In this document: one piece after another, positions 1 to 56,869 of the stretch | Layout: the number at the start of each line of letters is the position of its first letter | How positions within the stretch are numbered: position 1 is the stretch's first letter | DNA from: an uncultured Gammaproteobacteria bacterium | GTDB lineage: Bacteria > Patescibacteriota > Patescibacteriia > VMEV01 > CAYQCH01 | Direction of reading: 5' to 3' | Length of the DNA: 64,000 nucleotides | Assembly: GCA_964503955.1 (NCBI GenBank) | Contig: CAZDCG010000003.1 | Location: forward strand, 65,522 to 129,521 | Translations under genes and position numbers: made by a program | Notes under the pieces: generated by a model | The model's database searches: none | Told to the model about the DNA's origin: nothing | What the model saw: only the letters and a program-made list of their open reading frames with translations

Positions 1-179
1 GGCCAGGTTATGAGAAGGAGCAGGGGGAATAAGAAACATTATCCACAATTGTTATATTAGCTTGACAGGGTATATGCATAAAATTATCAATGTTTCAAGG
101 TGTTTCGCGGGTTTTTTCGTGTTGTCGTCAACCAGTTCTGACAATTTGCTGAAGTTTGCGAAAAAATGAAACCAAGCCC

Positions 180-208
180 TTGACAAATATTTTCAAAACA
201 AGTAAGTT
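180..208 (+). promoter_or_regulatory. candidate sigma70-like promoter (-35 TTGACA 180-185, 17 bp spacer, -10 TAAGTT 203-208) upstream of GC-rich lipoprotein gene
   Basis: hexamers read directly; weak -10. Confidence 0.3.
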
Positions 209-327
209 TTCCTGTTTCCTCGCTTCGTTATCCACAGTACAATGTGAGTAGGACGAGGCGGGGAATAACCCCGTTCTTGATTGTACTTTCCAATAGTCAG
301 ACCGGCGCCCCGCCGGAGGAGATCATC

Positions 328-2373
328 ATGATGAAGCATAGCCGTTTCCCGGCGGCCCGCGGGGTCGTCGGTTCCTGTCTTGCCATCCTGCTCTGTTCGC
401 TTGCCGCCATTGGCTGCAAGGGCGGAAGCAGCGGCGGCGGAGGCGGTGGCGGCGGCGTCACTCCTCCTCCCGGCGGCGGCGCCAACAACACGGCCCCCGC
501 CTTCACGAGCTCGACGGCTTCGCCGTCCACGCTCAAGAGCAACGAGACGCTGAACCTGCACGCCAGCGCCACCGACGGCGACGGCGACACGCTCTCCTAC
601 GCGTGGTCGCAGACGGCCGGGCCGAGCTTCGGCTCGATCCCGGCCGGTGCCAACGTCAGCCTGACCGCGCCGGCCGTGGCCAGCTCGCAGACGGCTTCGT
701 TCAAGATCGTCGTCAGCGACGGCAAGGGCGGCATCATCGAGCAGACCCACAACGTCACGGTCAACCCGGCCGGCGGCGGTGGGCCTCCTCCTCCGCCGCC
801 TCCGCCTCCGGGGCTCTCGCTCAACGGCATCAGCATCATTCAGATGCCCGAGCTTCAGCAGAGCTCGATCACTCGTCCGACCAATACGTCGGGAAAGATG
901 ATCCGTCTGCACGGCGACTTCTCGTCGTACCATCGCGATCAGTACGCTCTGCGTTACGACAATGGCGGTACGGCGGCGGTCACTTCGCTGCGCCAGGTTC
1001 TCCAGGGCAAGGCCATCGCCTGGGCTGAAGCACCCCGTCTGAGCATGACCGGAATCTACACGCTCTATCTGGACGTGTATGACACGACGACCCAGACCCT
1101 GATCCGCACGGCGGAGGCCCCTCCCGGGGGGCGGCCGGTGATCTCGTACAGCGATCCGGGGACCACCTACGTCGTGTTCAACGGCGAGGACGGCACGATC
1201 AACAACAACGGTCGTGTCTACAGCTTCGAGGTGGCCAATGACGGCACGCCGAGCAATAACCGCTTCATCGCGAGCGGCAACGGGCACGTCAACCGGCCTC
1301 GGTTCACCGCGGCTGGTTCGCAGCATGTCTTCGCCCCCGGCAATGCCGGGTTCGACGGCCTGCTGTTCAAGCTCGATGCCACCAAGACGAGCGGTCAGCT
1401 GTCGCCGTTTGACATCTCTGCTGGCATCCAGCGTGTCGTGATGGACTGCGCGACCTCGACGGTGGGTAATGCCGTGCTCCTGACGCAGACGCCTGGAGAT
1501 GTGTTCGTGGTTGTCGAGGTCGCCAATGACCTCTCCGCCATGGCGATCACCCCGCTGAACAATGCGGGAGTGGGGGCGCTGCTGGCGGGCACGACCATCG
1601 CCGGGTTCGACGTGATCCACTACCAGGAGCACAACGAGGTGGCAAGCGACTACGCGGTCATCGCGACTGCGAGCGGCAGCGACAATGCTGTCTACCTCGT
1701 TCGCCTGAAGGATCAGACGTACCGCCGTGTCGACCTCGGGAGCTTCGTACCCCAGGCCATGAGCGTCATCCTGGATCAGTCGAGCGGGCTGTGGCTGATC
1801 TCGGTTGCTGGGGTGACCTCTGGCACAGGAGCAGCTACTCTCACGGGGCATCAGTTCATGACGATCAAGCTCGACCCTCTCATTCTGATGCCTAGCCCGG
1901 TTGGACCGACGGCTCTGTCTTCGATCACGGCAAACGTGAAATCCTTCCACGTGTTCTGGGATGCTGCCAACAAGCGTCATGTCGGGTGGGTGATCAGTAA
2001 CGGCCTGAATGTGTACACCTGCTACGACCTGACGAACGGAGGGGCTCAGGTCGTCACGTCGGTTTCGAGTCCGTCGAGTACTGGCCCCACGGAGTCGTTG
2101 CGAGCTCGTGGTATGGACGGGTTCGTTGTCTGCTACAGCGGAGCAGCCTTCGGGGCGCTCTTCACGAGCTGGGACGGCAACACCACGGTCAACATCCCGA
2201 CCACCGACGCCCCCGACGCGGTTGCTGTGGGGGATCAGGTGATCGCAGTCGAAGATCGTCACTCCACTGGTCATCTGGTCAAGGTCTATCATGGTCCGAC
2301 CAATGCAACGGTCGACCACATGCCTCCCTTCAGCGCTTCGAGCAATGGAGGGTTGGGAACCGCGCTGCAGTAA
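328..2373 (+). CDS. GC-rich secreted lipoprotein with Gly/Pro-rich linkers and cadherin-like/Ig-like repeat (TDGDGDTLSYAW)
   Basis: GGAGGA 315-320 then ATG 328. Signal peptide with lipobox LAAIGC. Poly-G and poly-P linkers. About 66% GC against a 50% background. The antisense 742-aa ORF is a high-GC artefact. Confidence 0.6.
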   Translation: MMKHSRFPAARGVVGSCLAILLCSLAAIGCKGGSSGGGGGGGGVTPPPGGGANNTAPAFTSSTASPSTLKSNETLNLHASATDGDGDTLSYAWSQTAGPSFGSIPAGANVSLTAPAVASSQTASFKIVVSDGKGGIIEQTHNVTVNPAGGGGPPPPPPPPPGLSLNGISIIQMPELQQSSITRPTNTSGKMIRLHGDFSSYHRDQYALRYDNGGTAAVTSLRQVLQGKAIAWAEAPRLSMTGIYTLYLDVYDTTTQTLIRTAEAPPGGRPVISYSDPGTTYVVFNGEDGTINNNGRVYSFEVANDGTPSNNRFIASGNGHVNRPRFTAAGSQHVFAPGNAGFDGLLFKLDATKTSGQLSPFDISAGIQRVVMDCATSTVGNAVLLTQTPGDVFVVVEVANDLSAMAITPLNNAGVGALLAGTTIAGFDVIHYQEHNEVASDYAVIATASGSDNAVYLVRLKDQTYRRVDLGSFVPQAMSVILDQSSGLWLISVAGVTSGTGAATLTGHQFMTIKLDPLILMPSPVGPTALSSITANVKSFHVFWDAANKRHVGWVISNGLNVYTCYDLTNGGAQVVTSVSSPSSTGPTESLRARGMDGFVVCYSGAAFGALFTSWDGNTTVNIPTTDAPDAVAVGDQVIAVEDRHSTGHLVKVYHGPTNATVDHMPPFSASSNGGLGTALQ

Positions 2374-5732: not shown

Positions 5733-7238
5733 ATGCAGTTTAAGGAGAATATCCTGGCATTGAAAAAATACTGGCAGATCATTTACGCGTCTCTGCTGAT
5801 TGTTCTTATTCCGCTCACCATCATCGTCAATACGGTCTGGGTGACGGGAGAATTCAAGAGCAATATCGACGTGCAATTGCAGCGCCAGGCGCTTTCCATG
5901 GGAGAGGTATTCAACGGCGCTTTGCAGGACGCGCTTGACCATCCTGAAGAATTGCAGGACGAACTTGAGCGCGTGGCCGCGCTAAATCCCGATATCGTGC
6001 TTGCCGACATTCTCGTGCCGGAAGGGGATCAGTTCAAAGTGGTGGCAAGTTTGACTGAAGAGAGCATTGGAAAAACATCCGGCGAGCTTGTATACGTGAT
6101 TTCCTGGCATCAGAAGCAGGCCATTGCTAATCTGACCAACGCCGCATATCTTACGCGGGATAATCCGCTTGCGACCAGAAAATTTGAAGACCTGCAGGAA
6201 CGCTTCTGGTCCGTTTCCATCCCGCTTGTGGACTTGGAAGGCAATAAACGCGCGTTGCTGAGCCTGAATATGTCGCTGGCTATTGTGGATGAACTCGTTA
6301 GCCGGACATTGATCCGCTCTTACATCATCCTGACCTTTGCGGTCATCGTGATCGTCTTGCTGCTCATGGCGAATACCCGCTTATTCCAATACGCGGCTTT
6401 GGCCAAGAAGTTGAAAGAAGTGGAAAAACTCAAAGACGAATTTATTTCCATGGCTTCGCATGAACTGCGCACGCCGATCACAAGCCTTCGCGGATATCTT
6501 TCCATGTTGAAAGAGGGAGCGCTGGGCGAACTCAGCGATCTTGCCAAAGCGCGCGTCAATATGATGATGGGATCAGCTGACCGTCTCAATGAGCTCGTGG
6601 AGGATTTGTTGAACGTTTCGCGCATCGAACAGGGCAGGCTGACCATGAATTACGAAGTTGTCCAGGTTGAACCTGTGATCGAAGAAGTTATGAACGAACT
6701 GCAGGTGCAAGCTGACGAGAAAAAGCTTGCCTTTGCGTACAATCGTCCTGCATCGCCTTTGCCTGCGCTTCTGGTCGATGCGAATAGATTGAAGCAGGTG
6801 CTCGTCAACATAATCGGCAACGCGATCAAGTACACGCCAAAGGGCTCCGTTACGGTAACGAGTACATTCCGGGAAGAAGATAATCTGGTTGAGATCAAAT
6901 GCGCTGATACCGGACTTGGAATGACGCAGAAGCAGCGTGAACGCCTCTTTACAAAATTCTATCGCGTCAAAACTCAGGAGACAGAGCAGATCAAAGGAAC
7001 GGGACTTGGGTTATGGATTACCAAACAAATTGTTGAAATCATGGGCGGTGAAATTCTCGTTGACAGTATTAAAGATGTTGGAACGCAGATGTCGGTTAAC
7101 CTCCCTGTGCGCTCTGAAAAACAGATAAAAGAAACGTTGAAAAAACAAACTTCCATCGTGAAAAAAGAAGCCGTGAAGCTGAGCGAAAGCCAGAAATTGC
7201 CTGAACCGGACCCCGATGATGAGGAAGAGATGGCTTGA
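5733..7238 (+). CDS. sensor histidine kinase (two TM segments, HisKA H-box SHELRTP, HATPase G-box GTGLGLWI)
   Basis: conserved H-box and G1/G2 boxes in translation. Confidence 0.85.
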   Translation: MQFKENILALKKYWQIIYASLLIVLIPLTIIVNTVWVTGEFKSNIDVQLQRQALSMGEVFNGALQDALDHPEELQDELERVAALNPDIVLADILVPEGDQFKVVASLTEESIGKTSGELVYVISWHQKQAIANLTNAAYLTRDNPLATRKFEDLQERFWSVSIPLVDLEGNKRALLSLNMSLAIVDELVSRTLIRSYIILTFAVIVIVLLLMANTRLFQYAALAKKLKEVEKLKDEFISMASHELRTPITSLRGYLSMLKEGALGELSDLAKARVNMMMGSADRLNELVEDLLNVSRIEQGRLTMNYEVVQVEPVIEEVMNELQVQADEKKLAFAYNRPASPLPALLVDANRLKQVLVNIIGNAIKYTPKGSVTVTSTFREEDNLVEIKCADTGLGMTQKQRERLFTKFYRVKTQETEQIKGTGLGLWITKQIVEIMGGEILVDSIKDVGTQMSVNLPVRSEKQIKETLKKQTSIVKKEAVKLSESQKLPEPDPDDEEEMA

Positions 7239-7422
7239 TTTTCGATCGAAAATATGGTATGATCGTTTTCAGAGGCCGAATTGGCGCCTCTTTTTCTTTA
7301 CATTCAAAGAAGTTCCCGATCTTTGGGAAAAATGCGTATTCTGGCTCATAGGTCTGCCAAGACCTTGTGCCGGCATCGTATGTTTCTGAGAGGGGGTTAA
7401 GCGGAAACCTCGGCCCTTAATT

Positions 7423-7440
7423 GTGCCCGTAGCTCAGCTT
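7423..7440 (+). repeat. truncated 5' tRNA fragment (GTGCCCGTAGCTCAGCTT) resembling acceptor/D-arm of the adjacent tRNA-Arg
   Basis: 16/18 identity to 7480-7497. Confidence 0.5.
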
Positions 7441-7479
7441 CCGCCGGCGCTGCCAAACGAAAATAGCTGATTTCTTCGC

Positions 7480-7553
7480 GTACCCGTAGCTCAGCTGGAT
7501 AGAGCAACAGCCTTCTAAGCTGTAGGTCGAAGGTTCAAATCCTTCCGGGTACG
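7480..7553 (+). tRNA. tRNA-Arg(TCT)
   Basis: manual cloverleaf. Acceptor GTACCCG/CGGGTAC. Anticodon loop CTTCTAA. T-loop TTCAAAT. Confidence 0.9.
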
Positions 7554-7589
7554 CGAAGGGATTAACATCAACGTTCGGTGCGGGGCGGG

Positions 7590-7661
7590 GAGCAACAGCC
7601 TTCTAAGCTGTAGGTCGAAGGTTCGCCTGCCTGCCGGCAGGCAGGAATCCTTCCGGGTACG
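7590..7661 (+). repeat. partial duplicate of tRNA-Arg (D-stem 3' strand to discriminator) with a 21-nt perfect palindrome (GCCTGCCTGCCGGCAGGCAGG, 7625-7645) inserted in the T-loop; a third short copy at 7703-7716
   Basis: sequence identity to 7502-7553 apart from the insertion; lacks 5' acceptor strand. Confidence 0.7.
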
Positions 7662-7804
7662 CGAAGGGATTAGCGACAACCGTTTTAGGAGAGCGCGGCG
7701 GGGAGCAACAGCCTTCCTTGTTCATTGACGGCGAATCTCCTTTTCCATAACATAGATGCACGCTAGCTGGTTGGCGATTCCAATCACGACAAGATCAATA
7801 ACGG

Positions 7805-7880
7805 GGTGCCCATGGTGAAACGGTTATCACGGAAGCTTGTGGCGCTTCAATTACGGGTTCGATTCCCGTTGGGCACCCCA
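7805..7880 (+). tRNA. tRNA-His(GTG) with encoded G-1 and CCA
   Basis: acceptor GTGCCCA/TGGGCAC. D-stem GTGA/TCAC. Anticodon loop TTGTGGC. G at -1 and discriminator C. Confidence 0.9.
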
Positions 7881-7898
7881 TTGTTGATCTTCATACAT

Positions 7899-7950
7899 TC
7901 GATTCCCGCCTGCCCGCCGAAGCGTGAGCGGAGGAGGGTTGAGCACCCCA
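7899..7950 (+). repeat. partial duplicate of tRNA-His 3' end (TCGATTCCCG...GAGCACCCCATTG) split by a 32-nt insertion
   Basis: matches 7859-7883 on both sides of insert 7909-7940. Confidence 0.6.
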
Positions 7951-8062
7951 TTGAACATCTCTAGTTTCTGTTAGCAAAGACTCCCTTGACGGGGAGTTTT
8001 CTGTTGGCTGGACGATTAAGCTATTGCGGGGTACAGTGCCAAATAGGAAAAGGAGGTGGATC

Positions 8063-8761
8063 GTGAGATTGTTCATTTTCATACTATTACTCTGTTTTCT
8101 GCCTATTGCCGCGCTTCTGGCCCAGGACATTCAGGGGAGCGTTTCCCCTGACACCCCGCGCCTGACGGGATCGCAGGAGGATCCGTCCCCCGCCTACAGG
8201 GTTGTCCGCCGTCCACGCGAAGATTGGCGCATGTCCGAATATATCCTGTTTGTCATCGACATTTCAGGATCAATGGACTCCGCCAACCGCTTTGAGAAGG
8301 CGCTGCAGATCGCTCATGACCTCATGGAGGTCAGCACCGACCTCTACTATATCGGCGTGATCGTTTTCAACGATAATCACGAGCGATGGGAAGGCATTCC
8401 GGACGAGGAGAATCGCGTGCCTCCGGGCTGGGCAGCCATGCCCAATGGCGATAACTCCAAGGCGGCGAGGGAATGGGTGCGCTCTAGAGGCACAAGCAGG
8501 AGCACGAACCCGGCAACCGCCTTTCACGCCGCTCTGGCGGAACCGCAGCCCGAGCTCACGGTGGTGTTGATCACGGACGGGGAGTTCAACTACGGCATCA
8601 ACGCGAGGGATCTCTTCGCCGAGGGGCAGGCAAACCGCGTCCGAAACGAACAACCCGAAGCCGGTTTCATCATCTTCGGCGTCGGGGAGAAGTCGGCGCA
8701 AGAACAAAAACTGCTCGACCTCGCCGAGCACGCAACAGGGGGATTTTATGTGCAGGATTAA
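8063..8761 (+). CDS. secreted von Willebrand factor A (vWA) domain protein with MIDAS motif DISGSMDS; GC-rich
   Basis: GGAGG 8052-8056, GTG start 8063. Signal peptide. DxSxS motif. About 60% GC. Confidence 0.7.
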   Translation: MRLFIFILLLCFLPIAALLAQDIQGSVSPDTPRLTGSQEDPSPAYRVVRRPREDWRMSEYILFVIDISGSMDSANRFEKALQIAHDLMEVSTDLYYIGVIVFNDNHERWEGIPDEENRVPPGWAAMPNGDNSKAAREWVRSRGTSRSTNPATAFHAALAEPQPELTVVLITDGEFNYGINARDLFAEGQANRVRNEQPEAGFIIFGVGEKSAQEQKLLDLAEHATGGFYVQD

Positions 8762-8849
8762 CGGAACGGAGGCCGTTGATCCGCTTACGGGGAAGTTGCT
8801 GGAAAACCGCGCTTCCCCGTTCGATTTTCTTGATTTCTCTTCCCATTTA

Positions 8850-8898
8850 CCAGAAGCGTCGTATTGCAATACGACGCTTCTGGTTGAATTTTTTCTTC
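8850..8898 (+). terminator. terminator: 17-bp perfect palindrome CCAGAAGCGTCGTATTG/CAATACGACGCTTCTGG then TTGAATTTTTTCTTC
   Basis: read directly. Confidence 0.7.
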
Positions 8899-9059
8899 AA
8901 ACAGATGGGATTCCTAAAACCCAAACATAAAAAATGCCCGACAATGGCAATAATTGTGGGCAGATCTGAATACAGTATAGCAGATTTTACGGTGGATGCT
9001 AGATCAAGATTTAGAAATCAGATACTGGAGCAAAAAATCGCACATCGTACGATTTTTTG

Positions 9060-9145
9060 TGGTACCCGGGGCGGGACTCGAACCCGCACGTCCTTGCGGA
9101 CACAAGATTTTAAGTCTTGAGCGTCTACCATTCCGCCACCCGGGC
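9060..9145 (-). tRNA. tRNA-Leu(TAA), type II with long variable arm, CCA encoded
   Basis: reverse complement folds: anticodon loop CTTAAAA, variable arm GTGTCCGCAAGGACGT, T-loop TTCGAGT. Confidence 0.9.
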
Positions 9146-9165
9146 ATGCATAGAAAAAACCTGAG

Positions 9166-9237
9166 AGCGGGAGACGGGGATCGAACCCGCGATCTTCTCC
9201 TTGGCAAGGAGACGCGATACCACTTCGCCACTCCCGC
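9166..9237 (-). tRNA. tRNA-Gly(GCC)
   Basis: reverse complement: GCGGGAG acceptor, anticodon loop TTGCCAA, T-loop TTCGATC. A further 7 nt of flanking complementarity (CCTGAGA/TCTCAGG) lies outside the acceptor stem. Confidence 0.85.
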
Positions 9238-9373
9238 TCTCAGGCTTCTTAGAATAAAACGATCGGAAGGGCAGGGCTTCCGAAGTGAGTATACAGTAGC
9301 AAATATGCCGGAAAAAATAAAGAGGGGGATTCTTCTCTAAACAACCTTCCATTCTATGCTACACTAACTTCCC

Positions 9374-10609
9374 ATGACCCAAAAACAAGCCCTCAAAATG
9401 ATGAAATCCGGGGAGAATATCTTTCTCACCGGCGCGGCGGGTTCAGGCAAAACCTATGTCCTGAACGAATTTATTCTTGGCGCGAAAAAACGCGAGCTTG
9501 AGGTGGCTGTGACCGCGTCCACCGGCATTGCCGCGACGCATATGCAGGGGATGACCATTCATTCCTGGTCCGGGATCGGCATCAAACAGGCCTTGCCGGA
9601 AACAGAATTGAAGCGCATGCAGAATAACCCGGCTCTCGTGCAGCGATACAAACGGACCGATGTGCTGATCATCGATGAAGTGTCCATGATTTCTGCCGAG
9701 CTGCTGGATCTTATCGACAAAGCCGCCAGATACCTGCGGGAAAATGACTGGCCGTTTGGCGGAATGCAGGTGATTCTCTGCGGCGACTTCTTTCAGCTGC
9801 CTCCTGTCTCTCGGGAAAGACAAGCGCGCTTTGCTTTTGACGCGCAATCCTGGCAGCAAGCCGGTTTGCACATTTGCTATCTTGAAAAAAATTACCGCCA
9901 ATCCGATACCACGCTTGAGGCGATCCTTTCCGCCATGCGCCGCAATACGGTCAGCCAGCATATGATTGACCGGCTGCTTGAATGCCAGGAAACGTCCGTC
10001 GATGATCTCTACCGTCCGACAAAACTCTTCACGCATAATGTTGATGTGGATAAAATGAATCTGATGCATCTTGAAGATTTGGAAACAGAAGAACGGAGCT
10101 ATGCCATGACATCAAAAGGAGAGAAATCCTGGGTACAGTCAATCAAGAAAGGGTGTCTGGCGCCTGAGGAGCTGCGCGTGAGAATCGGGGCGGTCGTGAT
10201 GTTTGTAAAGAATAATTTCGCGCAAGGATATGTGAATGGAACCATCGGAGAGGTGGTTGATTTCGGCGACGATAACTTTCCCATTGTGCAGCTCGCAACA
10301 GGCAAGGAAGTCACTGTTTATCCTGAGTCATGGGCTTTGCAGGACGGTGAAACGATCCTCGGTGAGATTGCGCAAGTGCCTCTTCGTTTGGCATGGGCGA
10401 TGACGGTTCATAAGAGCCAGGGAATGAGTCTTGACGCGGCAGAAATCGATTTGCGCAAATGCTTTTTGCCGGGCATGGGATATGTTGCTCTTTCGCGCGT
10501 ACGGTCTTTAGACGGACTCGCACTGAGAGGGATGAACAAAATGGCCTTTGCCGTGAATGAACGCGTCCTCGCATTTGACAGACAGATCAGCCAAGACGCG
10601 AATCTCTAA
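9374..10609 (+). CDS. Pif1/RecD-family 5'-3' DNA helicase (Walker A GAAGSGKT, C-terminal VHKSQGMSLD)
   Basis: motifs in translation. Confidence 0.8.
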   Translation: MTQKQALKMMKSGENIFLTGAAGSGKTYVLNEFILGAKKRELEVAVTASTGIAATHMQGMTIHSWSGIGIKQALPETELKRMQNNPALVQRYKRTDVLIIDEVSMISAELLDLIDKAARYLRENDWPFGGMQVILCGDFFQLPPVSRERQARFAFDAQSWQQAGLHICYLEKNYRQSDTTLEAILSAMRRNTVSQHMIDRLLECQETSVDDLYRPTKLFTHNVDVDKMNLMHLEDLETEERSYAMTSKGEKSWVQSIKKGCLAPEELRVRIGAVVMFVKNNFAQGYVNGTIGEVVDFGDDNFPIVQLATGKEVTVYPESWALQDGETILGEIAQVPLRLAWAMTVHKSQGMSLDAAEIDLRKCFLPGMGYVALSRVRSLDGLALRGMNKMAFAVNERVLAFDRQISQDANL

Positions 10610-20340: not shown

Positions 20341-20415
20341 GGCCCCATCGTCTAACGGTTAGGACGCCAGGTTTTCATCCTGGAAATCGGGGTTCGATTC
20401 CCCGTGGGGTCACCA
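20341..20415 (+). tRNA. tRNA-Glu(TTC), CCA encoded
   Basis: GGCCCCATCGTCTAACGGTTAGGACG...; anticodon loop TTTTCAT. Confidence 0.9.
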
Positions 20416-20470: not shown

Positions 20471-20552
20471 AGATCCAGATCAAGATCTGGATATCTGGAT
20501 TCAAGATCCGAAGGCAGGGAAGCCCTATGGAAGGCCCGCCAGGGCGAGTGAG

Positions 20553-20602
20553 ATTCCCCGTGGTGTCACCACAAAAAGCACCAGTATTTCTGGTGCCTTT
20601 TG
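20553..20602 (+). repeat. direct repeat copy B: ATTCCCCGTGGTGTCACCACAAAAAG plus hairpin GCACCAG-tattt-CTGGTGC CTTTTG
   Basis: 24/27 identity to tRNA-Glu 3' end; different hairpin sequence. Confidence 0.8.
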
Positions 20603-41311: not shown

Positions 41312-41629
41312 TCTGGGCATCCCGCCTGGTTGATTTTCGTTGATGTTTTTGCTATAGTTTCCACGAACAAGGGAACGCTTGCCTTGTTTTTTGTTCCTTT
41401 TCTTCGCTCACAATAAATGAAAGCAGAGATTTAAACCTGCAACGAAGAAAGACCACTGTTTATCAGATTGGATATTCAGCATAGTGCAAGACTGCCTGCC
41501 GCAGGCAGGGAAGCATGAGTAGCGCAAGGTAGGAAGTAACAAATGAAAGCAGAGATTTAGCACAGTGCGAGGAAATGCGAGTAGCGCAGCGAAGTGTACA
41601 TAGATGTACATGCAGCGAGCAACGGAGCG

Positions 41630-43434: not shown

Positions 43435-44406
43435 TCAGTTGTTTTTCGTTTTTTTTCTGGAACGATCGTGAAAGGCCTTATGCACGTCACGCAATTGCTG
43501 GTTGGTGATATGCGTATAGATCTGCGTGGTGGTAATGCTTGAATGGCCAAGCATAGATTGTACGGATCGGATATCCGCTCCATTGAGCAGCAAGTCAGTG
43601 GCAAACGAGTGGCGGATCGTATGCGGGGTGACATGCTTGGTGATGCCTGCTTCGCGGGCATATTTCTCAACCATGCGCTGGACGCTGCGCGGGGTGAGCG
43701 GCATATATTCGGCCGACCGCTTGCTCGCGCGGTCATGGCGTACAAAGAGAAACAGGGCATCATCATTCCTTGCGTCAAAATATTCTTTCAGTGCGTAACG
43801 CGCCGCGTGCGAGAGAAAGGCTACGCGCAGCTTCCGTCCTTTTCCACGAACGGTGAACTCATCTTTTTTGAGATTCACTGAATCGCGCTTCAGGCTGACA
43901 AGCTCCGAGACGCGCAAGCCGGCGCTGAACAAAAGTTCCAAAATAGCTTTGTCCCGGAGTTTGAGGATTTTGGCCTGCTTCGATTTCAGCGGAGCTTCAA
44001 GAAACGCCTGCAAGTCGCTGCCGTCAAGAAAGTCCACCTGCCGTTCAGGGATTTTGCCAAGCTCAATTTTTTCGGGAGCCATGGTTTTTACGTCGCGCTT
44101 GGCAAGATATTTCAACCAGGAACGGAGCGCGACCAAATGGTAATTCTTCGTATTCGATTTTAATCCATCGCCTTGTTGATTTGTTTGTTCGTTCAGCCAG
44201 AGGCGATACCGTTTCACCAGATTTTGATCGATGTCCTTTGGATGTTTGGCACCCTTCGCTTTTGCAAAACCGACAAATCTGCGCAAATAGAAATCGTAGT
44301 TCTGAATGGTTTGCGGGCTCCGCTCTTTCTCAAGTTCCATGTATTCCAAGAAGTCGGTAACGGCGCGATCGAGCGGGGAAGAAGTTGTTTTTGTTTGCGT
44401 CGACAT
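43435..44406 (-). CDS. xerC: tyrosine recombinase XerC/XerD family
   Basis: R..HxxR..Y catalytic signature HTIRHSFAT...LGHSSITTTQIYTH. Confidence 0.9.
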   Translation of the reverse strand: MSTQTKTTSSPLDRAVTDFLEYMELEKERSPQTIQNYDFYLRRFVGFAKAKGAKHPKDIDQNLVKRYRLWLNEQTNQQGDGLKSNTKNYHLVALRSWLKYLAKRDVKTMAPEKIELGKIPERQVDFLDGSDLQAFLEAPLKSKQAKILKLRDKAILELLFSAGLRVSELVSLKRDSVNLKKDEFTVRGKGRKLRVAFLSHAARYALKEYFDARNDDALFLFVRHDRASKRSAEYMPLTPRSVQRMVEKYAREAGITKHVTPHTIRHSFATDLLLNGADIRSVQSMLGHSSITTTQIYTHITNQQLRDVHKAFHDRSRKKTKNN

Positions 44407-45449: not shown

Positions 45450-45560
45450 CTTATCTAGTCTCTGATATCTAGTTTCTAGAGATCTAGAAACCAGATGCTA
45501 GATCAGATAGGAGGAGATAAACAGATTAGGCTTCGTGCTAGATATGCTGATCCAGATCTG
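45450..45560. repeat. cluster of six or more CTAGAT/ATCTAG units plus near-palindrome GTTTCTAGAGATCTAGAAAC and GATCCAGATCTG: iteron/operator-like array
   Basis: read directly. Confidence 0.5.
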
Positions 45561-45960
45561 TCTGAGAATCTGGTATGTTTGGCAACGCCCGCCTGCCTGC
45601 GACTCTCGCCCGCTAACGCCTGATGCGTAGCTATGGCGAGCTGGGAGGGCAAGCGATGGCGGGCAGGTCTGATACGTCTGGCACCAACCACCCTTGCTCT
45701 CATCCTCGTTCCTCAAATATCAAGACCCCCGCTGGCGATGCGCCTGCCTTGCTTTGCAAGAAGAAACCTTCTGCGCGGGGGTGACGAAGGGGAGGCTGTT
45801 CGGGATGATGTGTTGCACTTACGTGTTGAACCCGTTGGCGGGGACTTTACAAACTTTGTGCTTTATAGTACATTACCGCCACTAAACAATAACTTTCCCT
45901 GTGGTTTGCGCCGCGTAGAATTCATAGAAATTCGGGCGTTTACTGCGGAGAACAGCCACT

Positions 45961-53353: not shown

Positions 53354-55687
53354 ATGCCGCGAGCCATCTTGGCTTTGCTCCTGCTTGGATCCTTGCCAGG
53401 CACCTGCCTGGCCCAGGCCGAGCGATGCGCGTTTTATGCGCAGAACCCTTCCCTCATTCAGGTGGGGCAAGGGCAAGTCATCGAGCGCGAGGTGGAAATC
53501 GTCTACACCAATACGGGGACATCCACCTGGCAGAGGACGGGAGGTGTTTCTAATCTCTCGTACATCGAGCTGCGCGCGGTCAATCAGCAAGGAGCCGTCA
53601 TCGACGGCCCGCTCTACCATCCTACCTGGATCAACCGCCAGCGCGTGGGGTCGTATCTCAGCATTCAGGGCGGGGTTGCTCCTTCGCAGCGCGCCAGATT
53701 CGTGTTCAAGGTTCTCGTGGATGGTTCAATACTCGCGCCCGGATCGCATGATTTCTACTTCCGCCCATATCATGCGAGCGGAGGATATATCAGCGACTGG
53801 GGCGGCTGCCATATCACCGTGACGGTGACACAGGGCGGGGCTACGCAGCCTCAGGTTCCTGCCGCGACCATCCTCTCCATCACGCCCAATCCGGCCGCAA
53901 GCGGTCAAGCGGTTTCGATCTCCGGTTCAGCAACGAATCAGCCGATCGAGTATCGATGGGAAAGCCAGGGGCAACTCCTGTCTGATCAAGCGTCCTTTTC
54001 GCGCGTATTCGCTTCCGGCGTGCATCAGATTGGTTTTCGCGCCAGAAACGCGCAAGGCTGGGGTACTTGGCAATACGCCACGCTCACGGTCAACAGCCCG
54101 TCGCCAACTTCCCAGCAATCCTACATCGACCAGGTGCTCGTGCCTCAGGTCGAGTACGCGGGGCCGGGGACGGTCGGACAGCCGGTCAACCTGGTTACGT
54201 CCGCCGCCGAGGTGCGCAAGTACCATGAGCTGCAGCTGGCTGGTCACGGGGTTCCGTCTTCAACAGGGCACGAATGGTTCGTGCGCCAGAACGGCCAGAT
54301 CAAGCCGGTTGCTACTCAGGCTGCTGCTATCGTGAACACGGCTGACTTCTTTGACGGACAGCAGGAGCTGCTCTACCGGACGCGCGGCGCGAACGGAGTC
54401 TGGAGCAGCTACGCGGTCCTGCCGATCAATGTCAGTCCCTGGCCGAAGCTGATCCCGCCGGTGCATGGTTCCTGGGCGCGAAGCGGCAACGATTACGGGG
54501 AGGGGGATCATACTCGGTCCGGCTCATACGACCATCTCCACGCGCAGGATTACAACCAGGCGAATGGAGAACCGGCCAATGCGGATTTCGGGCGTGAAAT
54601 CATCGCGCCGCTTTCCGGCAAGGTGACTGCTCTTGGCGCATCGGCCAACGGAGGCCGGTATGTGACCATTGAGTCATCCGACTCCGGTGTTCTGTACCGC
54701 GCATCGTTTTACCATCTCATGACGATAGCCGTCGAACAGAATGAGGTGGTTGCGCAGGGGCAGCCTATCGGTCTTTGCGGTAATACGGGACAGGCTTCCA
54801 CCGGATCGCATCTGCATTATGTGCTGCATCGCCAGCAAGGCGGGGCATGGGTTTCGGTTGCGCCCGAGCCGGTCTGGGTGGAACCCGCCCGGCTTGAGCA
54901 AAGCATCCCGCATGACTGGCAGCGCGATATTCGCGCAAACAGCCGAGTCTTGCCAAGCAGCTTGCTGATCCTTCAGGAGCAGGTCAGCGGTGGGGTGACG
55001 GATATGCACGGCTGGGGGCATGTGATGAAATACGCGCCAACGGTTTCCGGCCAGCCCACGGCGAGCCAGATCCTGCAGTGCGTTATCCCCGTTGCCGGGC
55101 GATGGAAGCTCTTTGCGCATAACCCAAGCGGTTTTACCAATAGCAATGCTGGATCGCCCGCTCACAATACGAGCGGAAAGGCAGTATTTGAGGTGACCAG
55201 ATCCTCGCAGCCAGGTCCTGCTACGCATGAAGTAGACCAGCACAATGGGGAAAAGGGAGCGCTGGTGTTCATCTGCGAAATCGATGCGCAGCAAGGAGAA
55301 ACCCTGATGATCCGGCAGCACAATGCAACCGGGGAACAGGGTAAGGAAGTTGCTTTTGACGAGCTCATCCTCAAGCTCGTGCATGCTTCTGGAGCAGGAG
55401 GAGGAGGTTCTGGAGGCGGATCCTCAAGCGGGGGATCTTCTTCCGGCGGGGGTTCAGGTGGAACATCTCCCTCAAACCCGCCTTCTCCACCGCCACCGCC
55501 CCCACCTTCATCTTCTTCGTCTTCTCCATCTCAAGGAGGTGCCGCAACGACTCCATCAGCAGGCGGGGGAGGCGGCGGTGGTGGCGGATGCAGCATGAGC
55601 AGCTCGGGCGGTCCGTCGTCTGCCTCGCTCTCGCTGCTCATCTGCAGCCTGTTTCTCGTTTTCGTCTTCAGGAGAGTCATCTCCTAA
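53354..55687 (+). CDS. GC-rich secreted M23/LytM-family metallopeptidase with long N-terminal domains and Gly/Ser/Pro-rich tail ending in a hydrophobic helix plus RR
   Basis: GGAG RBS; HxxxD and HLHYVLH M23 motifs; C-terminal GGGGGGGGGCSMSSSGG...LFLVFVFRRVIS. Confidence 0.75.
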   Translation: MPRAILALLLLGSLPGTCLAQAERCAFYAQNPSLIQVGQGQVIEREVEIVYTNTGTSTWQRTGGVSNLSYIELRAVNQQGAVIDGPLYHPTWINRQRVGSYLSIQGGVAPSQRARFVFKVLVDGSILAPGSHDFYFRPYHASGGYISDWGGCHITVTVTQGGATQPQVPAATILSITPNPAASGQAVSISGSATNQPIEYRWESQGQLLSDQASFSRVFASGVHQIGFRARNAQGWGTWQYATLTVNSPSPTSQQSYIDQVLVPQVEYAGPGTVGQPVNLVTSAAEVRKYHELQLAGHGVPSSTGHEWFVRQNGQIKPVATQAAAIVNTADFFDGQQELLYRTRGANGVWSSYAVLPINVSPWPKLIPPVHGSWARSGNDYGEGDHTRSGSYDHLHAQDYNQANGEPANADFGREIIAPLSGKVTALGASANGGRYVTIESSDSGVLYRASFYHLMTIAVEQNEVVAQGQPIGLCGNTGQASTGSHLHYVLHRQQGGAWVSVAPEPVWVEPARLEQSIPHDWQRDIRANSRVLPSSLLILQEQVSGGVTDMHGWGHVMKYAPTVSGQPTASQILQCVIPVAGRWKLFAHNPSGFTNSNAGSPAHNTSGKAVFEVTRSSQPGPATHEVDQHNGEKGALVFICEIDAQQGETLMIRQHNATGEQGKEVAFDELILKLVHASGAGGGGSGGGSSSGGSSSGGGSGGTSPSNPPSPPPPPPPSSSSSSPSQGGAATTPSAGGGGGGGGGCSMSSSGGPSSASLSLLICSLFLVFVFRRVIS

Positions 55688-55981
55688 AGACAGGGAGGGT
55701 AAGTCTTCTGAACTTGCCCTCCTTTTCACATTCTGCGGATATAGATCGAGCTGCTCCTCTTCAGACGGATGGATGGGCAAGCAGGTACCTGATACCTCAA
55801 GCGTTACAGCTGGATTCGAGATTCATCCGCGCCGTTAGTGCTCCAGCGTAGTGGAAAAAGCTTTCTTCTCAACGAATATAGTTAAATGCCTCTAAATCGT
55901 TGATTTTTTCGATATTCATTGCCAGCCCGGTTTCAAGGAGGTATAGTGATTCTGCGCCGTCGTTAATATCGAGGTGGCTTT

Positions 55982-56869
55982 ATGAATATCCTGGCAATAA
56001 TTCCCACAAGCAAACAGGAGGCCGTTGAATGGGTCGAGCAATTACCTGAGTTGAAGCTGTTTACTCAGGTGAAAGCCATGACCATTCCCTGGCATCAAAC
56101 AGGCATTGGCACGACACAGGACTGGATTGAGCTTGTCCGGGCTGTTGCTGCGCATGCGGATGCAGATGGTTTTATTGTCTGGGCTCCTGATCAATCATTG
56201 CTTGAAACGGCGGGGCTCTTGCAATTATCATTGCGGACTCCAGGGAAGCCGGTTATTGTTTTTTCCGCGCCCGCTCCGGAAAAATTGAACGGGAAAAAAT
56301 TTGAAAAACTCGGATTAAAAGCCACGCTCGTGCGCGCGGCATTTCTTGCGCAGTCGGATCTTGGCGAGGTGGTTATTTTAAACGGCGAACAAGTTTTGCG
56401 TCCGTCTCAGTGCGCTGCTTTGCTTGAGCATGGGATACGTCTTCATGAAGAACAGCCGCTGGCGTCTGTCAGCTTCAAGTTGGAATTTCATCAAGCGTAT
56501 GTAAAACGAAGTCAAACTCCGATGATTGCCGACCTTCCAGCAACCTTGGTTGAAGAAGCCAGGCCGATTGAATGGTCGCCAGCGCTTCCATTCAAGGGAC
56601 AGGAAACACCGGCTATTCCGCTTATTCGTTTTCAGCCAAGCCATTGGCATGTGCAGCCGCTTCAAACGCTTCGCAGGGAATTGCTTGAAAAACGAAAGGC
56701 AATCGTTTGGCATACGGACCAGCCCTTTGCCCCCGGTGAGCTGGATGCTCGGGAGCGGGTTTTAGACAACCGGGCGAACTGGTGGGCGGCATTGACTTGG
56801 CAGTATGCCTATTCGTTGAATCCGGAAAACCCATTAGCGGTTCTGGATGCATTGAATCAACAAGTATGA
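55982..56869 (+). CDS. asparaginase-fold protein with catalytic threonines replaced (TGGTIAG becomes IPTSKQE, HGTDT becomes WAPDQ): probable non-catalytic asparaginase-like domain protein
   Basis: collinear similarity to type II asparaginase N-domain (DGFIVWAPDQSLLETAGLLQLSLRTPGKPVIVFSAP). Confidence 0.5.
   Translation: MNILAIIPTSKQEAVEWVEQLPELKLFTQVKAMTIPWHQTGIGTTQDWIELVRAVAAHADADGFIVWAPDQSLLETAGLLQLSLRTPGKPVIVFSAPAPEKLNGKKFEKLGLKATLVRAAFLAQSDLGEVVILNGEQVLRPSQCAALLEHGIRLHEEQPLASVSFKLEFHQAYVKRSQTPMIADLPATLVEEARPIEWSPALPFKGQETPAIPLIRFQPSHWHVQPLQTLRRELLEKRKAIVWHTDQPFAPGELDARERVLDNRANWWAALTWQYAYSLNPENPLAVLDALNQQV

What the first reader, a model, noticed from the sequence alone, without database searches (positions are those of the whole stretch)
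7420..8000. tRNA-Arg/tRNA-His locus littered with truncated tRNA copies bearing palindromic T-loop insertions
A 5' fragment of tRNA-Arg precedes the intact gene. A 3' copy (7590-7661) is identical except for a perfect 21-nt palindrome (GCCTGCCTGCCGGCAGGCAGG) replacing one T-loop nucleotide, and a third short copy follows. tRNA-His is likewise followed by a duplicate of its T-arm and acceptor 3' end split by a 32-nt insert. The breakpoint lies in the T-loop, the classic integrase crossover region. The pattern suggests repeated integration and excision scars or a decaying tRNA array. A CCTGCC-containing motif recurs in both inserts and at 45587-45600.
Basis: seen in the sequence. Interest (0 to 1): 0.65.

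Follow-up and report, generated by a model that had tools for sequence, protein, structure and literature searches.

The report
Tiny palindrome that disables spare tRNA copies
The broken tRNA copies are real, and the 20-base palindrome inside one of them belongs to a widespread, apparently undescribed family of precise insertions that marks redundant tRNA gene copies in many bacterial phyla, usually beside a very small GIY-YIG nuclease gene.

Summary
tRNA-Arg(TCT), tRNA-His and also tRNA-Glu are each flanked by truncated copies of themselves. Independent assemblies reproduce the structure.

The palindrome is not a local scar. CCTGCCTGCCGGCAGGCAGG ("PAL", 7626-7645) occurs as an exact 20-mer 171 times in viral and metagenomic contigs of 29-71% GC, with 162 different flanks. 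Two control palindromes gave zero hits. About 20 filled-versus-empty comparisons show an exact 20-nt insertion, with no target duplication and no flank consensus.

PAL lies in tRNA gene fragments about 16 times more often than expected, and almost never in an intact gene. A relative of this organism carries PAL in another tRNA-Arg fragment, at a different position.

The commonest gene beside PAL is an 80-aa GIY-YIG nuclease. All seven sampled members of that subfamily (CPR, Omnitrophica, Margulisiibacteriota, Flavobacterium) show the layout [redundant tRNA copy with PAL or a hairpin variant] - nuclease - [intact tRNA]. PAL often ends 18-22 nt before the start codon.

The window has no such nuclease gene, so I read its locus as nuclease-less relics of this system. 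Tyrosine-integrase scars are poorly supported. How PAL moves is unknown.

The parts
7423..7439 (+). 5' fragment of a tRNA-Arg gene (positions 1-17). Its acceptor arm reads GTGCCCG, as in relative L006, not GTACCCG as in the resident gene. It breaks in the D loop and is followed by GC-rich TCCGCCGGCGCTGCC.
   Evidence: 16/17 match to 7480-7496 (D5). L006 tRNA-Arg sequence.
7480..7554 (+). Intact tRNA-Arg(TCT). No CCA is encoded. The acceptor stem is extended 6 bp by leader/trailer pairing.
   Evidence: ARAGORN. Rfam 73.7 bits. Inverted repeat I5.
7590..7680 (+). Redundant 3' copy of tRNA-Arg (position 23 through 9+ nt of trailer). It is identical to the gene except for the insertion in the T loop.
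   Evidence: 35/35 and 27/27 identity. Not called as a tRNA. Present in independent contig L242.
7626..7645 (.). PAL: the 20-nt perfect palindrome CCTGCCTGCCGGCAGGCAGG, inserted in the T loop at position 57/58, with A57 changed to G.
   Evidence: The same exact 20-mer occurs 171 times elsewhere, against 0 for two control palindromes. It stacks on the T stem as a hairpin (-12.4 kcal/mol, z -2.9).
7697..7716 (+). Third, short copy (GGGG + tRNA-Arg positions 23-35). It shares the GC-rich upstream junction of copy 2 and ends inside the anticodon.
   Evidence: (20/20 to 7585-7604).
7806..7880 (+). Intact tRNA-His(GTG), with G-1 and an encoded CCA. Its leader and trailer are complementary.
   Evidence: Inverted repeat I1.
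7898..7960 (+). Older, split 3' copy of tRNA-His: T loop and 3' T stem (7898-7908), then a 29-nt insert, then acceptor 3' strand plus trailer (7938-7960).
   Evidence: 11/11 and 19/23 matches (D8 and D3).
7909..7937 (.). GC-rich insert whose start, CGCCTGCCCGCCG, matches PAL's left arm at 12/13. It is probably a decayed PAL-type insertion. No significant hairpin remains.
   Evidence: D7. Fold z = 0. A similar insert, GCCTGCCCGCCAAAGCGAAGCGTCGGCAGG, sits in the T loop of a tRNA-Ser fragment in L170.
20552..20579 (+). 3' copy of tRNA-Glu (gene at 20341-20415), starting in the T loop (56/57) and preceded by a GC-rich GGCAGGG-containing segment.
   Evidence: 27/29 match.
41493..41510 (.). Degenerate PAL copy, CTGCCTGCCG-CAGGCAGG, about 157 nt upstream of the tRNA-Lys/Arg/Val cluster.
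   Evidence: 0.13 such hits expected per shuffled window.

Best explanation
The locus holds intact tRNA-Arg and tRNA-His genes, plus non-functional partial copies of them of different ages. tRNA-Glu, 13 kb away, shows the same thing.

The youngest copy has been hit by PAL. PAL is a 20-bp perfect palindrome that behaves as a dispersed micro-insertion in many bacterial phyla and their phages. It enters DNA as exactly 20 nt, without target duplication and without a flank consensus.

PAL is strongly concentrated in redundant tRNA gene copies and is not seen in the intact functional copy of such a pair. The only otherwise complete tRNA carrying it is a phage tRNA-Met.

In other genomes these PAL-bearing copies form one side of a recurrent three-part unit: [partial or whole tRNA copy interrupted by one to three PAL-type hairpins] - [gene for a minimal, Slx1-like GIY-YIG nuclease of about 80 aa] - [intact tRNA].

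I infer that such nuclease cassettes enter tRNA genes by break-and-repair. That process duplicates part of the tRNA, so an intact gene survives. I also infer that PAL is part of this system, in one of three ways:
- it marks or disrupts the nuclease's cleavage site, which would explain its fixed distance from the start codon;
- it breaks up the homology that would otherwise delete the cassette;
- it is itself moved by the nuclease.

The window contains no nuclease gene. Its fragments are therefore relics left after cassette loss, or products of a nuclease encoded elsewhere in the genome.

Shown: the anatomy, the precise insertion, the enrichments, and the link to the nuclease. Inferred: the break-repair origin, PAL's role, and the relic status of this particular locus.
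For: 1. PAL is specific. The arm-swapped and composition-matched palindromes gave 0. The 171 copies have 162 non-redundant flanks.

2. PAL is a precise insertion. About 20 filled/empty pairs within loci differ by a gap of exactly 20 nt, with no target duplication. These include this window, L004, L115, L162, L166, L179, L212 and L217.

3. The relative L004 (neighbouring kinase 71% identical) carries exact PAL in a 5' half-copy of tRNA-Arg(TCT), in the anticodon loop. This is a different site from the window's.

4. PAL is enriched in tRNA-derived sequence.
- After removing 3 hits that only reflect PAL inside the reference tRNA, 15 of 166 PAL sites are tRNA-derived, against 16 of 1838 random sites.
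- 13 copies lie in tRNA fragments, against 0.8 expected if PAL were uniform over non-ORF space.
- Only one PAL copy sits in an otherwise complete tRNA (L108).

5. The same T-loop site is hit elsewhere: 56/57-57/58 carries PAL-type inserts in L170 (tRNA-Ser) and in Flavobacterium L247/L248 (tRNA-Arg).

6. GIY-YIG is the associated gene.
- GIY-YIG (PF01541, E about 1e-16) is the most recurrent protein family near PAL (8 loci).
- An HMM of it finds 11 hits in 1.09 Mb of PAL loci and 0 in 1.3 Mb of unrelated control loci.

7. Loci chosen only by nuclease homology show the same unit. All 7 sampled proteins have it. PAL is exact in Yanofskybacteria, Margulisiibacteriota, Omnitrophica and a JGI contig. 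Flavobacterium carries hairpin-preserving variants.

8. PAL ends 18-22 nt before the ATG in 7 independent loci, whatever the tRNA.

9. Nucleases beside exact PAL are only 30-60% identical to each other.

10. Age series within the window: the Arg copy is 100% identical with an exact PAL, the Glu copy is 93%, and the His copy is 83% with a degenerate insert. This is decay, not maintenance.
Against: - No GIY-YIG gene, or any recognisable remnant of one, exists in the 64 kb. None was found in 21 kb of relative L004 either. The link between this particular locus and the nuclease therefore rests on analogy.
- About 90% of PAL copies are not in tRNA sequence, and most have no nuclease gene within the short contig.
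- More distant GIY-YIG copies (L173, L202, L209) have no tRNA fragment or PAL beside them.
- The sampled nucleases were close relatives of PAL-linked ones, so '7 of 7' describes one subfamily, not the whole family.
- The intact tRNA copy in each unit still contains any sequence the nuclease might recognise. A simple homing-with-immunity model is therefore incomplete.
- An 80-aa nuclease has no obvious DNA-binding domain.
- The tandem layout in the window (units starting 88 and 113 nt apart) could arise by plain slippage.
Confidence: 0.55

Rival explanations
1. Local tandem duplication by replication slippage or unequal crossing-over produced the partial tRNA copies. Separately, PAL is an autonomous-in-trans palindromic repeat (REP- or MITE-like) that lands in any neutral DNA. 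Its presence in tRNA fragments, and beside GIY-YIG genes, only reflects where insertions are tolerated.
For: - The Arg copies form a head-to-tail array with shared junction sequence (gcgg.gcgggg|agcaacagcc) and start-to-start spacings of 88 and 113 nt.
- PAL sits in locally repeated DNA 8 times more often than random sites do (31/165 against 10/443).
- It often lies among short degenerate tandem repeats. Flank direct repeats of 7 nt or more occur at 13% of sites, against 1-4% in controls.
- Most copies are far from any tRNA or nuclease gene. The window has no nuclease gene.
Against: - The 16-fold excess in tRNA fragments is measured against non-ORF space, so it already allows for tolerance.
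- Young fragments that are 100% identical to their parent already carry one or two PALs (L212, L217, L254). This needs targeting or coupling.
- PAL lies at a fixed 18-22 nt from the nuclease start codon.
- All 7 nuclease-selected loci carry it.
- No REP-like GTAG or other flank consensus exists.
- No transposase family recurs near PAL.
Confidence: 0.22
2. One reading: the fragments are attL/attR-type scars of repeated integration and excision by tyrosine-integrase elements that cross over in the T loop or anticodon loop. The GC-rich inserts are leftovers of the element ends.
For: - Partial 3' tRNA copies downstream of the gene are what tRNA-targeting integrases leave (established knowledge).
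- The third Arg copy ends in the anticodon loop, and several fragments elsewhere also end there.
- A tyrosine recombinase gene exists in the window at 43435-44406.
Against: - That recombinase has Xer-type domains and lies 36 kb away.
- Nothing island-like lies between the repeats (35 nt and 17 nt).
- PAL is internal to continuous tRNA sequence rather than at a junction.
- PAL occurs at 162 unrelated flanks.
- 5' fragments upstream of intact genes are common.
- In no related locus is an integrase the gene between the copies. It is a GIY-YIG nuclease. A serine-recombinase gene lies about 0.7 kb downstream in L252, outside the repeat pair.
Confidence: 0.12
3. The PAL-bearing copy is a functional RNA: a tRNA-like molecule, a split or intron-containing tRNA whose hairpin is removed or tolerated, or a processing or terminator element for the tRNA transcript.
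For: - The tRNA-derived parts of the copy are 100% conserved, while the spacer after it has diverged.
- PAL extends the T stem into a stable hairpin.
- In phage contig L108, PAL sits in the variable loop of an otherwise complete tRNA-Met that ARAGORN still calls.
- PAL sites lie in or at the edges of cloverleaf loops.
Against: - The copy lacks the 5' acceptor strand and D arm. ARAGORN and Rfam do not call it.
- Removing PAL restores a credible complete tRNA in only 1 of 171 cases, L108. In the window it yields only a 69-nt ARAGORN call with a poor acceptor stem.
- Older copies in the same window are decaying (His 83%, degenerate insert with no hairpin).
- Fragment lengths vary from 17 to about 60 nt between loci.
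Confidence: 0.05

Closest known systems
Free-standing GIY-YIG homing endonucleases in tRNA gene clusters (phage T4 SegB; PMC2330249), and I-TevI-type enzymes that cut at a fixed distance from their insertion site (PMC3943268 and own knowledge)
   Same: A GIY-YIG nuclease gene sits among or inside tRNA genes. The layout suggests spread by break repair with co-conversion of flanks. PAL lies at a fixed distance from the cassette boundary, recalling the 23-25 nt offset between I-TevI's cleavage and insertion sites.
   Different: These proteins are only about 80 aa: the catalytic domain alone, Slx1-like, with no DNA-binding domain. The cassette is flanked by a duplicated part of the tRNA. The spare copy carries a conserved 20-nt palindrome, which has no counterpart in Seg, Mob or Tev systems. 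No cleavage has been tested.
Small palindromic dispersed repeats: REP/REPIN with RAYT transposases, MITEs, Rickettsia palindromic elements, GC clusters and double-hairpin elements of fungal mitochondria (own knowledge)
   Same: Short GC-rich hairpin-forming sequences scattered through non-coding DNA. They are sometimes nested in other repeats and sometimes tolerated inside RNA genes.
   Different: PAL is only 20 nt and a perfect palindrome. It is identical across phyla and across 29-71% GC. REPs, by contrast, are species-specific. PAL has no target duplication and no GTAG-type flank. No Y1 transposase recurs nearby.
Integrase-mediated islands in tRNA genes, including tandem decayed arrays such as tycheposons (own knowledge)
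   Same: Partial tRNA copies lie next to an intact gene, the same locus is hit repeatedly, and breakpoints fall in the anticodon and T arms.
   Different: There is no integrase and no island. 5' fragments lie upstream as well as 3' fragments downstream. The palindrome is internal to the tRNA copy rather than at a junction.
Introns in tRNA genes: group I introns of Patescibacteria (PMC13011429) and archaeal introns at non-canonical loop positions (own knowledge)
   Same: Extra sequence sits in tRNA loops (D, anticodon, variable, T). The host phylum is known for interrupted tRNA genes.
   Different: PAL is far too small to be a ribozyme, and it sits in truncated copies that cannot make a tRNA. 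The cited paper does not mention palindromes or gene fragments.

Membership tests
Functional tRNA gene (for the fragments) | Covariance-model score above the Rfam tRNA gathering threshold, or a complete cloverleaf called by ARAGORN | tested here: not met
   Best fragment score is 19.4 bits (E 0.29) against a threshold of 29. ARAGORN calls only the two intact genes.
Intron-containing tRNA | Removing the insert restores a complete tRNA | tested here: not met
   After removing PAL, ARAGORN gives only a 69-nt call with a poor acceptor stem in the window. Of 171 copies, only L108 becomes a normal tRNA.
Integrase att scar / integrated island | A tyrosine or serine recombinase gene and island DNA lie between the tRNA and its displaced partial copy | tested here: not met
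   The gaps are 35 nt and 17 nt. The only recombinase is Xer-like, at 43435-44406.
Integrase att scar / integrated island | The repeat is the 3' part of the tRNA, in direct orientation downstream of the gene | tested here: met
   Arg, His and Glu all have downstream 3' copies. However, an upstream 5' fragment is also present (7423-7439).
MITE / cut-and-paste transposon | Target-site duplication flanking the terminal inverted repeats | tested here: not met
   About 20 filled/empty pairs show exactly 20 extra nt and no duplicated flank.
REP/REPIN (RAYT-mobilised) | Conserved 5' tetranucleotide (GTAG) next to an imperfect palindrome, species-specific sequence, and a RAYT gene in the genome | tested here: not met
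   No flank consensus over 162 contexts, apart from T being depleted at position -1. The sequence is identical across phyla. No recurrent transposase lies near PAL. Presence of a RAYT elsewhere in these genomes could not be tested.
Free-standing GIY-YIG homing-endonuclease cassette | A GIY-YIG ORF is present at the locus | tested here: not met
   None is present in the window. It is met in related loci L115, L162, L168, L191, L212, L244, L247-L254 (PF01541, E about 1e-16).
Free-standing GIY-YIG homing-endonuclease cassette | The nuclease cleaves the cassette-free allele, and the cassette-bearing allele is immune | not testable with these tools
   This needs biochemistry or crosses. Cultured Flavobacterium strains carry the unit.
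PAL family (defined here) | Exact or near-exact CCTGCCTGCCGGCAGGCAGG present as a clean 20-nt insertion relative to a paralogous or orthologous empty site | tested here: met
   Window 7626-7645 compared with 7502-7572. Controls gave 0 hits.

The most novel reading that the evidence does not exclude
PAL and the 80-aa Slx1-like GIY-YIG nuclease together form a new kind of minimal mobile system. A structure-specific nuclease would cut DNA at tRNA-gene stem-loop junctions and other sites. Then one of two things would happen:
- it excises and re-inserts the 20-bp palindrome as a hairpin or duplex, which would make PAL the smallest transposable unit known; or
- each break acquires PAL when the same 10-nt sequence is added to both ends, which automatically yields a perfect palindrome.

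Either route would explain five observations:
- the sequence is identical across phyla while the nuclease itself diverges to 30-60% identity;
- there is no target duplication;
- copies cluster locally;
- insertion sites fall at cloverleaf stem-loop junctions (11/12, 21-23, 31/32, 38/39, 53/54, 56-58);
- PAL lies at a fixed distance from the nuclease start codon.
Probability: 0.25. Interest if true: 0.92.

Novelty: new variant of a known kind. Interest (0 to 1): 0.8.

Why it matters
The finding matters in five ways if it holds.

- **A conserved micro-insertion.** A 20-bp sequence kept letter-for-letter from Patescibacteria to Omnitrophica, Margulisiibacteriota and phage-like contigs, and inserted with single-base precision, implies recognition by a conserved machine that has not been described.
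- **Function of a large protein family.** Thousands of stand-alone GIY-YIG/Slx1-like genes in bacteria have no known role. This family has 5,494 homologues at E <= 1e-10. Here they are tied to tRNA genes and to a defined DNA motif.
- **How a selfish gene can enter an essential gene.** The cassette appears to duplicate part of a single-copy tRNA gene and then disable the spare copy, so the cell keeps a working tRNA.
- **Annotation.** The result explains the 'tRNA pseudogene litter' and the contig breaks seen in CPR and Flavobacterium assemblies.
- **Testability.** Cultured Flavobacterium strains carry the unit, so the hypotheses can be tested at the bench.

Tried and rejected
1. **Assembly artefact.** Rejected. 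Independent Logan contigs are identical across the palindrome, and other contigs break exactly at the triple repeat.

2. **General preference of PAL for hairpin loops.** I folded 162 reconstructed empty sites and 1,585 random sites. There was no difference (44% against 45%). Loop or junction targeting is therefore only an impression from the roughly 16 tRNA cases.

3. **Target-sequence consensus.** None was found, beyond depletion of T at position -1.

4. **The His-type insert as a second dispersed family.** CCTGCCCGCCRAAGCG gave 111 viral hits, but only 1 had a matching right arm. That is chance level.

5. **A scan for CCCGCCTGCC-loop-GGCAGGCGGG hairpins.** It gave 31 hits. I draw no conclusion from it.

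6. **Cultured phage and plasmid collections.** No clean exact PAL match among the listed hits.

7. **Nuclease homologues in viral contigs.** Only 3 loci were found, one of them already known.

8. **Literature.**
   - The 20-mer and an 11-nt core gave no relevant paper.
   - Combinations of GIY-YIG, tRNA, palindrome and truncated gave only T4 SegB and organelle papers.
   - The paper on Patescibacteria tRNA introns does not mention palindromes or fragments.

9. **Split tRNA, BHB intron, telomere-resolvase site, integron attC or rolling-circle origin.** I considered these from memory and dropped them. PAL has no loop or nick motif, its hosts are truncated genes, and its flanks are unrelated.
Full report
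**1.

ARAGORN and Rfam place tRNA-Arg(TCT) at 7480-7554 and tRNA-His(GTG) at 7806-7880. Around tRNA-Arg there are three partial copies.

- A 17-nt 5' fragment lies at 7423-7439 (16/17).
- A 3' copy at 7590-7680 equals the gene from position 23 through 9 nt of trailer. It matches 35/35 and 27/27 on either side of an insert.
- A 14-nt third copy at 7703-7716 stops inside the anticodon.

The only difference between the 3' copy and its parent is that A7537 is replaced by G plus CCTGCCTGCCGGCAGGCAGG. The perfect palindrome is 20 nt long (7626-7645).

tRNA-His is followed by TTCGATTCCCG (11/11), then 29 nt of GC-rich insert, then its acceptor 3' strand and trailer (19/23).

Neither ARAGORN nor a permissive Rfam scan calls any fragment a tRNA. 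The best score is 19.4 bits against a threshold of 29.

The structure is not an assembly error. Logan contig L242, seen in three runs, is identical to 7595-8878, palindrome included. Two other contigs end at 7515, where the three-copy repeat makes the assembly graph branch.

**2. The host**

The flanking histidine kinase has relatives of 71%, 67% and 49% identity in MAGs, one of them labelled Patescibacteria. Pfam annotation of the window shows an ordinary small-genome chromosome: IF-2, GyrA, FtsH, TsaD, RNase III, PNPase, S1, pilus ATPases, PIF1 and DEAD helicases.

The only recombinase is Xer-like and lies at 43435-44406. The window contains no transposase, HNH or GIY-YIG gene.

In relative L006 the same tRNAs form a clean Arg-His-Gly-Leu cluster with no fragments. 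The litter is therefore lineage-specific.

**3. The palindrome is a dispersed, precisely inserted element**

In relative L004, a 5' half-copy of tRNA-Arg(TCT) lies 90 nt upstream of the intact gene. It carries the same 20-mer, but in the anticodon loop.

Scanning public collections for the exact 20-mer gave two sets of hits:

- 44 copies in 35 viral-contig stretches;

The contigs range from 29% to 71% GC. An arm-swapped palindrome and a composition-matched palindrome each gave zero viral hits.

The 171 copies have 162 different flanks. For 31 of them an uninterrupted paralogue of the flanks exists in the same contig, against 10 of 443 random sites.

I aligned about 20 of these pairs. The difference is a gap of exactly 20 nt, with no duplicated or lost target bases. 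There is no flank consensus except depletion of T at position -1. A test for preferential insertion into predicted hairpin loops was negative.

I call the element PAL.

**4. PAL is concentrated in broken tRNA genes**

- After removing three hits that only reflect PAL inside the reference tRNA, 15 of 166 PAL sites lie in tRNA-derived sequence, against 16 of 1838 random sites.
- Counting only fragments, 13 copies are observed against 0.8 expected if PAL were spread evenly over non-ORF space.
- Only one PAL sits in an otherwise complete tRNA. This is a phage tRNA-Met, where PAL mimics a long variable arm (L108).
- In every other case the host is a truncated copy lying next to an intact tRNA, usually of the same kind.

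Insertion points fall at or near cloverleaf stem-loop boundaries: 11/12, 16/17, 21/22, 22/23, 31/32, 38/39, 45/46, 53/54 and 57/58.

The window's T-loop site recurs. A tRNA-Ser fragment in L170 has a PAL-type insert at GGTTCG|AATCC. Flavobacterium pseudo-tRNA-Arg copies carry one at GGTTC|GAACC.

**5. The associated gene**

Clustering all ORFs within 2.5 kb of PAL showed one family recurring across otherwise unrelated contigs. It is an 80-90-aa protein (8 loci), and Pfam identifies it as a bare GIY-YIG catalytic domain (E about 1e-16). An HMM of it finds 11 copies in the 1.09 Mb of PAL loci and none in 1.3 Mb of unrelated control loci.

The local layout is stereotyped:

- leader plus the 5' part of a tRNA, up to about the anticodon loop, interrupted by one or two PALs;
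- then the nuclease ORF;
- then leader plus the intact tRNA.

To remove the bias of having selected on PAL, I searched for homologues of the protein (5,494 at E <= 1e-10). I then fetched the genomic context of seven of them. All seven show the unit:

| Source | tRNA | PAL form |
|---|---|---|
| Candidatus Yanofskybacteria | Lys | exact |
| Margulisiibacteriota | Leu/Ser-type fragment | exact |
| Omnitrophica | Asn | exact |
| JGI contig | Ser (two PAL-bearing fragments) | exact |
| Flavobacterium nitratireducens | Arg | hairpin-preserving variant (CCTGTCTGCCGACAGGCAGG) |
| Flavobacterium sp. MAHUQ-51 (two proteins) | Arg | hairpin-preserving variants |

In strain MAHUQ-51 the order is reversed: intact tRNA, then nuclease, then a full-length pseudo-tRNA with three inserts, one of them in the T loop. 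That is the orientation seen in the window.

PAL ends 18-22 nt before the start codon in seven independent loci and 61 nt before it in two families, whatever the tRNA. The nucleases beside exact PAL are only 30-60% identical to each other. PAL is therefore far better conserved than the protein.

There are limits to this. The seven proteins are close to the PAL-linked query profile. More distant copies (L173, L202, L209) have neither a tRNA fragment nor PAL beside them.

**6. Reading the window**

The window shows an age series.

- The Arg 3' copy is identical to its parent and holds an exact PAL.
- The Glu copy is 93% identical. It begins at T-loop 56/57, next to a GC-rich stretch.
- The His copy is 83% identical. 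Its insert keeps only PAL's left arm (12/13) and no longer folds.

This looks like neutral decay of redundant copies, not maintenance of a functional RNA.

The 5' fragment at 7423 has the acceptor sequence of the L006-type tRNA-Arg rather than that of the resident gene. This suggests the gene has been replaced at least once. A second, degenerate PAL lies upstream of the tRNA-Lys/Arg/Val cluster.

No nuclease gene is present, so the locus is best read in one of two ways. It may be what remains after cassette loss: deleting the nuclease from the MAHUQ-51 arrangement would give exactly [tRNA]-spacer-[3' copy with T-loop PAL]. Or it may be the work of a nuclease encoded elsewhere in the genome. 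This step is inference.

**7. Mechanism**

*Shown:* precise 20-nt insertion; preference for redundant tRNA copies; linkage to a minimal GIY-YIG nuclease; fixed spacing to its start codon; cross-phylum identity.

*Inferred, most likely:* the cassette spreads by double-strand-break repair into tRNA genes. The repair duplicates the stretch between the cut and the insertion point, so an intact gene is preserved. PAL lies where the enzyme cuts, or breaks up the repeat so that the cassette is not lost by recombination.

Several points remain unexplained:

- how PAL reaches about 150 unrelated sites;
- how the intact copy escapes cleavage;
- how an 80-aa protein achieves specificity.

One attractive possibility follows from the symmetry of PAL. 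Adding the same 10 nt to both ends of a break, or leaving 10 nt of each terminal repeat behind, produces precisely this kind of perfect palindrome. Another is hairpin or cruciform cutting by an Slx1-like, structure-specific enzyme. Neither can be tested here.

**8. Rivals**

- **Integrase scars.** These fit the 3' copies and the anticodon breakpoints. They fail on the absence of an island and an integrase, on PAL being internal to the copy, and on the upstream 5' fragments.
- **Plain slippage plus an unrelated REP-like repeat.** This fits the tandem geometry and PAL's liking for repetitive DNA. It does not explain the 16-fold excess in tRNA fragments, the fixed distance to the nuclease gene, or the 7/7 result.
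- **A functional tRNA-like RNA.** This is contradicted by the truncation and the decay.

**9. Novelty**

I found no paper containing the sequence or describing truncated tRNA copies beside GIY-YIG genes. The library does not cover most subscription journals, so absence of a hit is not proof.

The pieces resemble known kinds: free-standing GIY-YIG homing endonucleases such as T4 SegB in a tRNA cluster, and small palindromic repeats. The combination, and PAL's size, precision and conservation, match none of them.

Noticed in passing
window 7474-7486 / 7546-7558 and 7791-7822 / 7860-7891: The leader and trailer of tRNA-Arg and tRNA-His are complementary, extending the acceptor stem by 6 bp and about 8-12 bp. 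The same is seen at tRNA-Asn in L162 (aatcctaa ... ttaggatt). tRNA-Arg(TCT) and tRNA-Gly encode no CCA, while the other six tRNAs do.
   Followed up: partly
window 8995-9030, 20472-20510, 45450-45570: Intergenic runs of short degenerate repeats built on AGATCT/CTAGAT-like units, often next to GC-rich GGCAGG hairpins and tRNA genes. In other genomes PAL is likewise embedded in genome-specific 7-8-nt degenerate tandem repeats (gtgagag, cgtacct, tcaaatc ...).
   Followed up: partly
window 45588-45667: GC-rich inverted repeat CCCGCCTGCC ... GGCGGGCAGG enclosing about 60 nt. Its arms resemble PAL and an element in L098 (CCCGCCTGCC-16 nt-GGCGGGCAGG). The fold is not significant (z -1.0). It lies 1.2 kb from the Xer-like recombinase gene.
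   Followed up: partly
L143 ~330-390, L203 ~1060-1135, L235 ~1600-1695, L173 2081-2361: A second repeat family with inverted ends CCCGTTAGAGGC ... GCCTCTAACGGG. In three contigs PAL sits just inside the right end (cgcg|PAL|GCCTCTAACGGG). In L173 similar inverted ends flank a GIY-YIG ORF.
   Followed up: partly
L170 (minus strand) after tRNA-Ser(GCT), and plus strand ~7400: A different 16-nt perfect palindrome, TGCACCGTACGGTGCA, follows the tRNA 3' end. CTCCGCCA is repeated on both sides of it, next to a GIY-YIG gene. The same module ends the PAL-bearing tRNA-Ser fragment 2 kb away, which looks chimeric between two tRNA-Ser genes.
   Followed up: no
L115 ~822-1000: The tRNA copy downstream of the nuclease gene is interrupted after GGTTGGCT in the anticodon loop by sequence that may be a group I intron, as reported for Patescibacteria tRNAs. 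I did not check it with a covariance model.
   Followed up: no
window 7200-9400 compared with L006 8880-9410 and L004 11600-13760: The tRNA cluster is rearranged between relatives. L006 has a compact Arg-His-Gly-Leu. In the window a VWA-domain gene (8063-8761) lies after His, and Gly-Leu are inverted. L004 has a lipoprotein-like ORF between Arg and His.
   Followed up: partly
window 8849-8884: A 36-nt perfect palindrome (cagaagcgtcgtattgcaatacgacgcttctg) lies about 90 nt downstream of the VWA gene. It is probably a terminator.
   Followed up: no
L117 3926-4142; L106 throughout: PAL variants form tandem arrays (a 21-nt unit, GCCATGCCTACCGGCAGGCAGG, at least 10 times at a contig end) or many scattered near-copies in high-GC viral contigs.
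   Followed up: no
window 1-2000 and 54000-56000: Two stretches of raised GC (61% and 58%, against about 50% elsewhere). They coincide with a large Ig/PKD-domain surface protein gene and an M23 peptidase gene.
   Followed up: no
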